64,000 bases of DNA from Hormiphora californensis (lineage: Eukaryota; Animalia; Ctenophora): the NCBI GenBank assembly GCA_020137815.1, contig CM035353.1, positions 2,108,001-2,172,000 on the forward strand. Reading direction: 5' to 3'. The notes beneath the pieces were generated by a model, which did not search any database, was not told the DNA's origin, and worked only from the letters and a program-made list of their open reading frames with translations. The position numbers and the translations under genes were made by a program. The first letter of the stretch is position 1; every line of letters begins with the position of its first letter. Shown in pieces: positions 59,601 through 60,618 of the stretch.

Positions 59601-60618
59601 CAAGTACTTCCTAACCCCCCTACATCATTGTATAGCCCACAAGTACTTCCTAACCCCCCTACATCATTGTATAGCCCACAAGTACTTCCTAACCCCCCTT
59701 CATCATTGTATAGCCCACAAGTACTTCCTAACCCCTCTACATCATTGTATAGCCCACAAGTACTTCCTAACCCCTACATCATTGTATAGCCCACAAGTAC
59801 TTCCTAACCCCCCTACATCATTGTATAGCCCACAAGTACTTCCTAACCCCCCTACATCATTGTATAGCCCACAAGTACTTCCTAACCCCCCTACATCATT
59901 GTATAGCCCACAAGTACTTCCTAACCCCCCTTCATCATTGTATAGCCCACAAGTACTTCCTAACCCCCCTACATCATTGTAACACACACACGTCAGGTTG
60001 CCTATGCGCCAAGCGGCCTCAAGGTCCGGTACCTCAAGGTCTTTGAGCCAAAGCTGGGGTATAGCGACCCACAGACAACTAAGTTTATACGGTATATCGG
60101 ACGAGCGGGACTCTACGAAGTCCGAGTGTAGATATATCACACGGTGTGACTGTGAGTGTGTGTGTGTGATTTGATCTCCTTTGTGACCTCCTACAGCCCC
60201 ACCAGCTCTCTCTCAACTCACCAGATCAAGAGAGAGAGAGAGAAACTGAGAGAATTACTCCTTGATTTCAAAACGCTATTTATTCAATATATGGGTTTTA
60301 TTTATCTGTACGTGTGTTTGAATTTCACCTGGGATTTTGTTATTTGATCCTCGGATTTCTGATTGAAAGCCTTCATTATTTTTGTTAAAGCATTTGTCAT
60401 TTGATTTTGCTGCTGTCCCAACAACCCTGCTCCCCAAATACTATACATCTTGAGATCTTGTCCCAATTAATACCCCTTTTCAGACCCCATACGCGCCAAG
60501 TGGCCTCAAGGTACGGTACCTGAAGGTCTTTGAACCCAAACTGAACTACAGTGATCGGGAGACGGTGAAATGGGTGAGGTACATCGGTAGGAGCGGACTG
60601 TACGAGACCCGATATTAA
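38653..60618 (+). CDS. AP2M1: AP-2 complex subunit mu (mu2), 11 exons with two alternative terminal exons
   Basis: Exons 38653-38726, 50090-50228, 50535-50661, 52860-52942, 53917-54052, 54424-54565, 55173-55292, 55578-55713, 55954-56051, 56384-56495, then 59997-60131 or 60484-60618. Motifs: [72 protein letters not shown]. Confidence 0.96.
38757..38905. repeat. Palindromic MITE-like inverted repeat
   Basis: AAAACTAATTGAAATTAG..GAGCTACCTT / AAGGTAGCTC..CTAATTTCAATTAGTTTT. Confidence 0.65.
39475..42631 (-). pseudogene. LDLa-GPCR paralog C, antisense in AP2M1 intron 1; many small indels (pseudogene or poor consensus)
   Basis: Colinear with paralogs B and D. The ORF is broken into 41384-42631, 40821-41387, 40365-40616 and 39459-40028. 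Single-base deletions cluster at ~40200-40900. Confidence 0.75.
43017..43224 (+). mobile_element. tRNA-derived (SINE-like) repeat copy
   Basis: Acceptor-stem-like GGGTTTG/CAAACCC (43126-43199), D-arm-like TAGCTTAGTAGTATAGCT, degenerate box B AGTTTGATTCC. Leader shared with 2689-2746. Confidence 0.5.
43229..43697. mobile_element. Kolobok-like MITE
   Basis: TTAA|AGTGAGAGTGGACCGAATCAGAAT ... ATTCTGATTCGGTCCACTCTCACT|TTAA, with inverted arms over 100 bp. Confidence 0.8.
44611..47792 (-). CDS. LDLa-GPCR paralog D (intact, 2 exons), antisense in AP2M1 intron 1
   Basis: Exons 47792-45260 and 45149-44611. Same architecture and intron position as paralog B. Confidence 0.93.
47879..48010. repeat. (GA)n microsatellite upstream of paralog D (other CT/GA tracts at ~14075, ~28030, ~33800, ~42730, ~53490)
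   Basis: Directly visible dinucleotide runs. Confidence 0.95.
48636..49391. mobile_element. Tc1/mariner-type MITE with ~190-bp TIRs
   Basis: TA|ACGGGTGACAACTAAAAATTGTTAC ... GTAACAATTTTTAGTTGTCACCCGT|TA. Confidence 0.85.
51047..52049 (-). CDS. Single-exon rhodopsin-class GPCR antisense in AP2M1 intron 3; one +1 frameshift near 51246
   Basis: TM1-TM5 with [12 protein letters not shown] (DRY-equivalent) lie in ORF 51210-52067. The TM6 end and TM7 with FDPVVY lie in ORF 51047-51244. A pyrimidine tract plus CAG sits 17 nt before the ATG at 52049. Confidence 0.8.
54570..54963. mobile_element. Palindromic MITE (PIF/Harbinger-like) inserted 4 nt into AP2M1 intron 6
   Basis: GGGTCACCACACACCAAAG ... 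CTTTGGTGTGTGGTGACCC, arms ~195 bp, flanks TAA / AAA. Confidence 0.85.
55300..55468. repeat. 20-bp minisatellite x ~8
   Basis: T(A/G)TATGGTGTTAAATGACCA units just after the exon 7 donor. Confidence 0.92.
56667..59980. repeat. 39-bp minisatellite, ~85 copies, in the last AP2M1 intron
   Basis: Unit TATAGCCCACAAGTACTTCCTAACCCCCCTACATCATTG, very homogeneous except for C-run length. Confidence 0.97.
59997..60131 (+). CDS. AP2M1: AP2M1 alternative terminal exon 11a (variant, KFIR in place of KWVR)
   Basis: CAG|GTT.. phase 0; [44 protein letters not shown]; same length (135 bp) as exon 11b. Confidence 0.85.

What the first reader, a model, noticed from the sequence alone, without database searches (positions are those of the whole stretch)
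59997..60618. AP-2 mu2 with two alternative last exons that swap the YxxPhi cargo-binding strand
There are two intact 135-bp phase-0 terminal exons. 11b ([44 protein letters not shown]) is canonical. 11a ([44 protein letters not shown]) differs at 11 of 44 residues, with over 15 synonymous codon changes and no indels, so it is an old duplicate still under selection. In mammalian mu2, K420-W421-V422-R423 forms the tyrosine-motif binding site with F174/D176; 11a has K-F-I-R and a changed preceding strand. One gene could thus make two AP-2 adaptors with different endocytic cargo specificity. I know of no described equivalent.
Basis: partly seen in the sequence, partly recalled or inferred. Interest (0 to 1): 0.8.

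Follow-up and report, generated by a model that had tools for sequence, protein, structure and literature searches.

The report
Comb-jelly AP-2 swaps its cargo strand
In this gene, likely from a comb jelly, the cargo-binding subunit of the endocytic adaptor AP-2 has two conserved versions of its last coding exon, both spliced in relatives, and one replaces a tryptophan that other animals almost never change, so splicing would likely tune which surface proteins are taken up.

Summary
Observation confirmed. Two intact 135-bp phase-0 exons (59997-60131, 60484-60618) can each complete a 433-aa AP-2 mu2. They differ at 11 of 44 residues and 18 synonymous-only codons. The duplicate is old and selected: exon 11a is 43/44 identical to Bolinopsis microptera RefSeq isoform X2 and 39/44 to a third comb-jelly lineage whose synonymous sites are near saturation. 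11a copies form one clade (100/98). Both exons appear spliced to exon 10 in relatives' records.

One correction. In the only 11a transcript whose DNA I could read (L002), 11a is followed by 33 nt, then 11b and the same 3' UTR as the 11b transcript. The window has donor-like sites 12-20 nt after the 11a stop and no AATAAA between the exons. 11a is therefore likely a stop-bearing cassette exon, not a separately polyadenylated last exon.

11a fixes W421F, V422I, I/V419T and P393A. F421 occurs in 0 of 175 non-ctenophore mu2 tails. The changes are conservative, so tuning is likelier than a new cargo code. Binding is untested, and no RNA from this species was found. This is a known splice class in a gene where I found no description. 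Interest 0.5.

The parts
38653..56495 (+). AP-2 mu2 (AP2M1) constant exons 1-10: 38653-38726, 50090-50228, 50535-50661, 52860-52942, 53917-54052, 54424-54565, 55173-55292, 55578-55713, 55954-56051, 56384-56495. Encode 389 aa, including pocket residues L173-F174-L175-D176 and R203 (K203 in mammals).
   Evidence: 90-92% identical to Bolinopsis, Mnemiopsis and other comb-jelly mu2 bodies
56496..56501 (+). Exon 10 donor (phase 0), used for either downstream acceptor
   Evidence: exon10-11a and exon10-11b junctions in relatives
56669..59981 (+). 39-bp satellite, 85 copies, filling intron 10 and ending 15 nt before exon 11a
59974..59996 (+). 11a acceptor; weaker pyrimidine tract (11/20) than the 11b acceptor (15/20)
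59997..60131 (+). Exon 11a coding part and stop: A393, G412, T419, K420-F421-I422-R423, A428, V433
   Evidence: ortholog of Bolinopsis X2 tail
60132..60167 (+). Post-stop stretch with candidate 5' donors at 60144 and 60152 (GTGAGT, 20 nt after the stop), followed by a TG repeat; predicted end of the 11a cassette
   Evidence: inferred, no RNA from this species
60152..60483 (+). Predicted intron between 11a and 11b (332 nt if the 60152 donor is used); no AATAAA or ATTAAA, one AATATA at 60286
60484..60618 (+). Exon 11b coding part and stop (K420-W421-V422-R423); coding when 11a is skipped, likely 3' UTR when 11a is included
   Evidence: L001 and L002
60619..61571 (+). Likely shared 3' UTR up to the first AATAAA downstream (61566)
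   Evidence: poly(A) site not shown

Best explanation
The last coding exon of this AP-2 mu2 gene, likely from a comb jelly, is duplicated, and both copies are conserved and found spliced in relatives, so the gene likely makes two mu2 subunits whose tyrosine-motif sites would differ modestly in cargo preference. SHOWN: two intact exons; purifying selection on both; duplication older than the split of this species from Bolinopsis and a third lineage; exon10-11a and exon10-11b junctions in relatives; in one relative the 11a transcript runs 11a, 33 nt, 11b, common 3' UTR. INFERRED (splicing, about 0.65): 11a is a stop-bearing cassette. Skipping gives the W421 form. Inclusion, with splicing from a donor 12-20 nt after its stop to the 11b acceptor, gives the F421 form and leaves 11b in the 3' UTR. 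The short stop-to-junction distance would let it escape junction-dependent nonsense-mediated decay (50-55-nt rule, recalled, not tested in ctenophores). INFERRED (function, about 0.55): the 11a subunit folds as normal mu2, assembles into AP-2 and still binds YxxPhi. W421F and I/V419T would weaken the wall of the Tyr pocket and the surface that favours Arg at Y+2, V422I would narrow the Phi pocket, and P393A would alter the upstream subsite (role recalled). The result would be shifted affinity and preference, probably in particular cell types.
For: Intact model with both exons. Bolinopsis X2 (XP_063678391.1, 11a) and X3 (XP_063678393.1, 11b) differ only in the last 44 residues and are each listed on a 16.3-Mb contig. 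Spliced 11a-type proteins P0001, P0002, P0003, P0123; exon-only 11a ORFs P0130, P0131, P0146, P0147. Window 11a vs L002 11a: 5 of 44 residues differ, pS 0.73, pN 0.10, dN/dS about 0.04; constant exons pN 0.07. 11a clade 100/98; window 11a+11b as a clade rejected, p-AU 0.0003. L002 has 168 nt more than L001, namely 11a plus spacer, and the same 3' UTR. GTRAGT occurs 30 times in 64 kb on the + strand, and one lies 20 nt after the stop. W421, V422, I419, K420 and R423 contact the motif (PMC2133128; PMC11638888 passages). W421 in 173 of 175 and F421 in 0 of 175 non-ctenophore tails; P393 in 175 of 175. The 11a protein models as mu2: pLDDT 88.6, C-domain rmsd 1.2 A to 5WRL.
Against: The junctions are shown only in relatives. 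The mRNA layout rests on one assembled contig of another species, and I could not see its genomic DNA, so a plain alternative acceptor with a 33-nt gap is not excluded there. Candidate donors score at the low end (6.4 and 4.8; real donors 5.1-10.2 on a matrix built from those same donors) and sit beside a TG repeat. AATATA at 60286 could be a weak poly(A) signal. The substitutions are conservative: among 121 of 150 diverse mu representatives with an aligned tail, I422 occurs 21 times, A428 65, V/I433 76, F421 3, Y421 2. The structure model used an alignment dominated by W421 sequences and had no peptide, so it says nothing on specificity. For Mnemiopsis only an 11b-type protein was listed.
Confidence: 0.6

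Rival explanations
1. Both isoforms are real, but 11a mainly changes AP-2 regulation (closed/open balance, subunit contacts, stability) rather than cargo choice.
For: Five of the 11a-specific positions (412, 416, 417, 428, 433) and the last residue lie outside the Tyr and Phi pockets listed in PMC2133128. Worm mu2 substitutions at closed-state interfaces open AP-2, and R440S is among the mu2 transgenes made in that study (PMC4215536 section 7 and passages); that it equals R434, between the changed 433 and 435, is my inference. That beta2 plugs the YxxPhi site in closed AP-2 is recalled.
Against: Three fixed changes cluster on consecutive motif-contact residues 419, 421 and 422, and 421 is almost invariant. 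R434 itself is kept.
Confidence: 0.25
2. In this species the exons are classical alternative last exons, each with its own poly(A) site.
For: This is the usual route for homologous C-terminal swaps in human genes (PMC8373072 passages). AATATA and a T-rich stretch lie near 60286; 352 nt separate the exons.
Against: L002 carries 11b and the common 3' UTR after 11a. No AATAAA or ATTAAA between the exons; donor-like sites just after the stop.
Confidence: 0.2
3. 11a is a poison exon or a decaying relic that lowers mu2 output and makes no useful protein.
For: Its stop lies upstream of a likely later junction. Its acceptor is weaker and abuts a 3.3-kb satellite.
Against: Amino-acid conservation across three lineages with synonymous sites near saturation. 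The stop is at the same codon as the normal one and gives a full-length fold. 11a is more conserved than 11b between this species and Bolinopsis.
Confidence: 0.05

Closest known systems
Tandem exon duplication-derived C-terminal substitutions (77 of 236 human events; PMC8373072, PMC9741552; e.g. GNAO1, PRKCB, DNM1)
   Same: Homologous duplicated final coding exons give proteins that differ only in the C-terminal segment; ancient; mostly conservative substitutions.
   Different: AP2M1 has 0 hits in that paper's human supplementary table. Those events are described as using alternative poly(A), while here a relative's transcript shows a shared 3' UTR. The authors note such regions tend not to overlap ligand-binding residues, while this one covers the cargo strand.
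Mammalian AP-2 mu2 YxxPhi site (PDB 1BW8, 5WRL, 2XA7, 8T1O)
   Same: Same fold. L173-F174-L175-D176, V401, L404, K420, R423 kept in both isoforms; 11b keeps W421 and V422.
   Different: 11a has F421, I422, T419, A393. The comb-jelly sequences aligned have R203 for K203. Mammalian tails in my searches show one version of this segment.
mu1A/mu1B and mu3A/mu3B paralog pairs (PMC2133128)
   Same: Cell-type-restricted alternative mu subunits within one AP complex, with distinct motif preferences among mu family members.
   Different: Those are separate genes. Here one gene swaps only the last 44 residues by splicing.
Bolinopsis microptera RefSeq AP-2 mu-like X1/X3 versus X2
   Same: The orthologous event: X2 carries 11a, X1 and X3 carry 11b.
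   Different: Automatic annotation only; I found no paper discussing it.
Priapulus caudatus mu2 X1 versus X2 (RefSeq predictions)
   Same: Two isoforms differ at 7 residues, all in one internal block that includes L175 of the Phi pocket; likely another duplicated mu2 exon.
   Different: A different, internal exon and an independent origin; genomic DNA not seen.

Membership tests
AP-2 mu2 (AP2M1) orthologs | Full-length similarity to mu2 well above mu1/mu3 | tested here: met
   Bolinopsis ortholog 69-74% identical to AP-2 mu2 chains, 35-39% to mu1, 25% to mu3; window body 91% to it
AP-2 mu2 (AP2M1) orthologs | Tyr pocket F174, D176, K203, W421, R423 | tested here: inconclusive
   11b form: F174, D176, W421, R423 present, K203 is R. 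11a form: also W421F. Binding not measured.
AP-2 mu2 (AP2M1) orthologs | Binds YxxPhi peptides and assembles into AP-2 | not testable with these tools
   Needs biochemistry
Tandem exon duplication-derived substitution | Two homologous tandem exons in one gene | tested here: met
   33/44 aa and 89/135 nt identical, 487 nt apart
Tandem exon duplication-derived substitution | Each exon used in place of the other in the protein | tested here: met
   In relatives: L002 vs L001, P0002 vs P0121, P0001 vs P0004. Not shown for this species.
Tandem exon duplication-derived substitution | Both copies conserved under selection | tested here: met
   pN 0.08-0.10 against pS 0.73-0.88; 11a clade 100/98
Alternative last exons with separate poly(A) sites | Upstream exon has its own 3' end and mRNAs hold only one exon | tested here: not met
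   L002 holds both exons and the common UTR; no canonical signal between the exons in the window. One contig, other species.
Strict mutually exclusive exons | Exactly one of the exons in each mRNA, internal position | tested here: not met
   Both lie in L002; exclusive only at the protein level
Stop-bearing cassette exon escaping NMD | Donor used within about 50 nt after the stop | tested here: inconclusive
   Candidate donors 12 and 20 nt after the stop; 33-nt spacer in L002; no RNA-genome pair from one species

The most novel reading that the evidence does not exclude
Comb jellies run two AP-2 cargo codes from one gene. Including 11a builds an F421/I422/T419/A393 site that reads a different motif set (non-Arg Y+2, other Phi, or Phe/Trp in place of Tyr) or ignores ordinary YxxPhi cargo. 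It is switched on in particular cell types, such as their neurons, as a splicing-based counterpart of the mu1B and mu3B paralogs.
Probability: 0.2. Interest if true: 0.8.

Novelty: new variant of a known kind. Interest (0 to 1): 0.5.

Why it matters
W421 is one of the two residues mutated to abolish YxxPhi binding by mu2 (PMC2133128) and is nearly invariant. A natural, long-conserved F421 isoform that differs from its partner in only 44 terminal residues is a ready-made pair for testing how the tyrosine-motif code can be retuned. It would also show cargo selection of the core endocytic adaptor being set by splicing in the likely sister group of all other animals. A review notes that splicing control of endocytic adaptors is largely unexplored (PMC6912373 passage). 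The feature appears confined to comb jellies and its function is untested, which limits the score.

Tried and rejected
No RNA holder was listed for 59990-60480. The two runs offered gave only short matches under 90% identity. This is no evidence on expression. No whole genome is held, so a second mu2 gene elsewhere could not be checked. The first structure prediction, with 16 close sequences, failed (pLDDT 44); it was repeated with 85 diverse ones. No complex prediction was run: it needs partners of 30 or more residues and would not resolve W versus F. A third homolog search found no further comb-jelly clusters among the 120 listed of 394. The metagenome scan gave only 2 loci. No Rfam match in 52000-64000. 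The inter-exon RNA folds no better than shuffles (z 0.41), and no convincing docking/selector pairing was seen. Post-stop flanks of 11a and 11b are not significantly alike (103 of 1000 shuffles reach the score), nor is the L002 spacer like the window's inter-exon DNA (286 of 1000). A species-specific recent duplication was rejected. A duplication older than comb jellies is not needed: the six comb-jelly tails as one clade are not rejected (p-AU 0.77), though 44 columns do not prove it. P0147 reads through the 11a stop with a different sequence; unexplained, possibly an assembly error. The role of P393 could not be confirmed in papers. The supplement of PMC4215536, which may list worm suppressor alleles, could not be read. 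Earlier scan findings by sequence, nearby place and words: nothing.

Full report
OBSERVATION. With ten upstream exons (38653-56495, all introns GT-AG) either gives an open 433-residue AP-2 mu2. They differ at 11 of 44 residues and 18 synonymous-only codons, with no indel; pS is 0.76 and pN 0.20. The shared motif occurs exactly twice in the window and never in 100 shuffles. Intron 10 is filled by 85 copies of a 39-bp satellite that ends 15 nt before 11a.

ORGANISM. The constant part is 90-92% identical to Bolinopsis microptera, Mnemiopsis leidyi and unnamed relatives and groups with them at 100/100, so this is likely a comb jelly. Its place within the group is unresolved. Lobate and cydippid lineages split 160-260 million years ago (PMC10232365 passage), but I did not show that this species is a cydippid.

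CONSERVATION. The 11a query retrieved Bolinopsis RefSeq X2 (XP_063678391.1; tail 43/44 identical), with X1 and X3 carrying 11b. X2 and X3 are identical apart from the tail. A third lineage ('species C', unnamed JGI records) also has both forms: P0003 and P0123 with 11a; P0005, P0125 and P0126 with 11b. Of the comb-jelly proteins fetched that span the exon 10 junction, 4 are 11a-type and 12 are 11b-type; 4 more are exon-only 11a ORFs. Window 11a versus species C 11a: 5 residue differences, pS 0.73, pN 0.10, dN/dS about 0.04. Window 11b versus species C 11b: 4 differences, pS 0.88, pN 0.08. Constant exons: pN 0.07, pS 0.89. The four 11a rows form a clade at 100/98, and joining the window's own two exons is rejected (p-AU 0.0003). 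All six comb-jelly tails as one clade are not rejected (p-AU 0.77), and both copies share Y394 and T418, so an origin in the comb-jelly stem is likely but not proven. Against universality: only an 11b protein was listed for Mnemiopsis, which may reflect its annotation.

SPLICING MODE. A scan of metagenome contigs returned 2 loci, both spliced species C sequences. L001 is exons 1-10, 11b, 3' UTR. L002 is exons 1-10, 11a with its stop, 33 nt, 11b, and the same 3' UTR. The constant exons differ by 35 synonymous and 0 amino-acid changes, as alleles would. The 11a message there does not end at its own poly(A) site. In the window there is no AATAAA or ATTAAA between the exons (only AATATA at 60286; first AATAAA at 61566). 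Donor-like sites lie 12 and 20 nt after the 11a stop. GTGAGT at 60152 is the hexamer of two of the gene's ten donors, and GTRAGT occurs at 0.47 per kb. The end of the L002 spacer is pyrimidine-poor (8/20, against 10-17/20 for the window's 11 acceptors), more like an exon end than an acceptor. I infer a stop-bearing cassette whose downstream junction lies under 50 nt from the stop, which by the mammalian rule (recalled) would avoid decay; PMC7355637 passages give only the 20-24 nt deposition site of the junction complex. Weak points: one contig, another species, low donor scores, an adjacent TG repeat. That UG repeats recruit CELF or TDP-43 regulators is recalled and untested.

PROTEIN. In mammalian mu2 the motif Tyr packs on F174, W421 and R423 and hydrogen-bonds to D176, K203 and R423. 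Phi sits among L173, L175, V401, L404, V422 and K420. Arg at Y+2 contacts W421, I419 and K420 (PMC2133128, parts 1-2 of 3 read; PMC11638888 and PMC9765456 passages). Ten positions separate all four 11a rows from all five 11b rows; A393, G412, T419, F421, I422 and V433 are fixed in 11a. Among 175 non-ctenophore tails from my searches, W421 occurs 173 times and F never; V422 173, P393 175, S428 172, T433 172 (5 tardigrade-type Y394 tails and 22 records lacking the anchor motif were dropped). Among 121 of 150 diverse mu representatives with an aligned tail, W421 occurs 111 times, F 3, Y 2, while I422 (21), A428 (65) and V/I433 (76) are common. So W421F is the unusual change and several others are tolerated variants. 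The Bolinopsis 11a protein models with pLDDT 88.6 (94-98 over the tail) and matches open AP-2 mu2 (TM 0.86 to 8T1O; C-domain rmsd 1.2 A to 5WRL). This shows compatibility with the fold, not specificity. H416 and K420 mutations did not reduce IRS1 binding in one study (PMC6443781 passage), a caution on reading the 416-417 changes. The comb-jelly sequences also have R203 in a constant exon.

MECHANISM. Most likely: skipping 11a gives a near-canonical W421 adaptor; including it gives an F421 adaptor that still binds YxxPhi with altered affinity and Y+2/Phi preference (0.6 overall). Rivals: altered open/closed regulation (0.25), separate poly(A) sites in this species (0.2), poison or relic exon (0.05). 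The first concerns function and the second splicing, so they are not exclusive.

KNOWN KINDS. This is a tandem exon duplication-derived C-terminal substitution, of which humans have 77 (PMC8373072 passages; PMC9741552 passages). AP2M1 is absent from that paper's supplementary table. It fails the tests for strict mutually exclusive exons and, in the one readable transcript, for separately polyadenylated last exons. Functionally it resembles the mu1A/B and mu3A/B paralog pairs. Priapulus RefSeq isoforms suggest an independent mu2 exon swap that includes L175, and two amphioxus records differ in the exon 7 block (different species, so not conclusive).

NOVELTY. Four searches of open-access full text (listings and abstract starts only, 7 of 7, 20 of 455, 20 of 119 and 15 of 81 papers listed) showed no description of duplicated mu2 terminal exons or of comb-jelly AP-2 isoforms. 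Subscription papers are mostly not covered. RefSeq holds the Bolinopsis isoforms as automatic models. Verdict: real, conserved, and a new variant of a known kind; function untested. Interest 0.5.

Noticed in passing
window 39459-47792 (- strand): Two tandem copies of a large LDLa-domain rhodopsin-family GPCR gene nested antisense in intron 1 of mu2. Both are split into several ORFs, so frameshifted or mis-assembled.
   Followed up: partly
window 51210-52124 (- strand): 304-aa ORF antisense in intron 3 with no Pfam match; by eye hydrophobic and GPCR-like.
   Followed up: partly
window 53326-53336 (+): 11-nt micro-exon-like sequence (pyrimidine tract, CAG, GTAAGT) in intron 4, the junction where Bolinopsis X1 has a 4-residue insertion. 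11 nt would shift the frame, so possibly a poison micro-exon or chance.
   Followed up: partly
window 56669-59981: 3.3-kb 39-bp satellite with 83 CTAAC branch-like motifs and 86 YAG triplets directly upstream of the 11a acceptor; could affect 11a inclusion in this species.
   Followed up: no
window exon 6 (54424-54565): K203 of the Tyr pocket is Arg here and in all 6 comb-jelly rows of the alignment.
   Followed up: partly
P0041 vs P0053 (Priapulus); P0044 vs P0048 (Branchiostoma): Likely duplicated internal mu2 exons in other animals. The Priapulus block spans the T156 region and L175.
   Followed up: partly
window about 37660-38345 (+): A small multi-exon gene just upstream of mu2 that by eye resembles enhancer of rudimentary (ERH); label recalled, not tested.
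   Followed up: no
window 61611-61663: 23-nt near-perfect inverted repeat just after the first downstream AATAAA.
   Followed up: no
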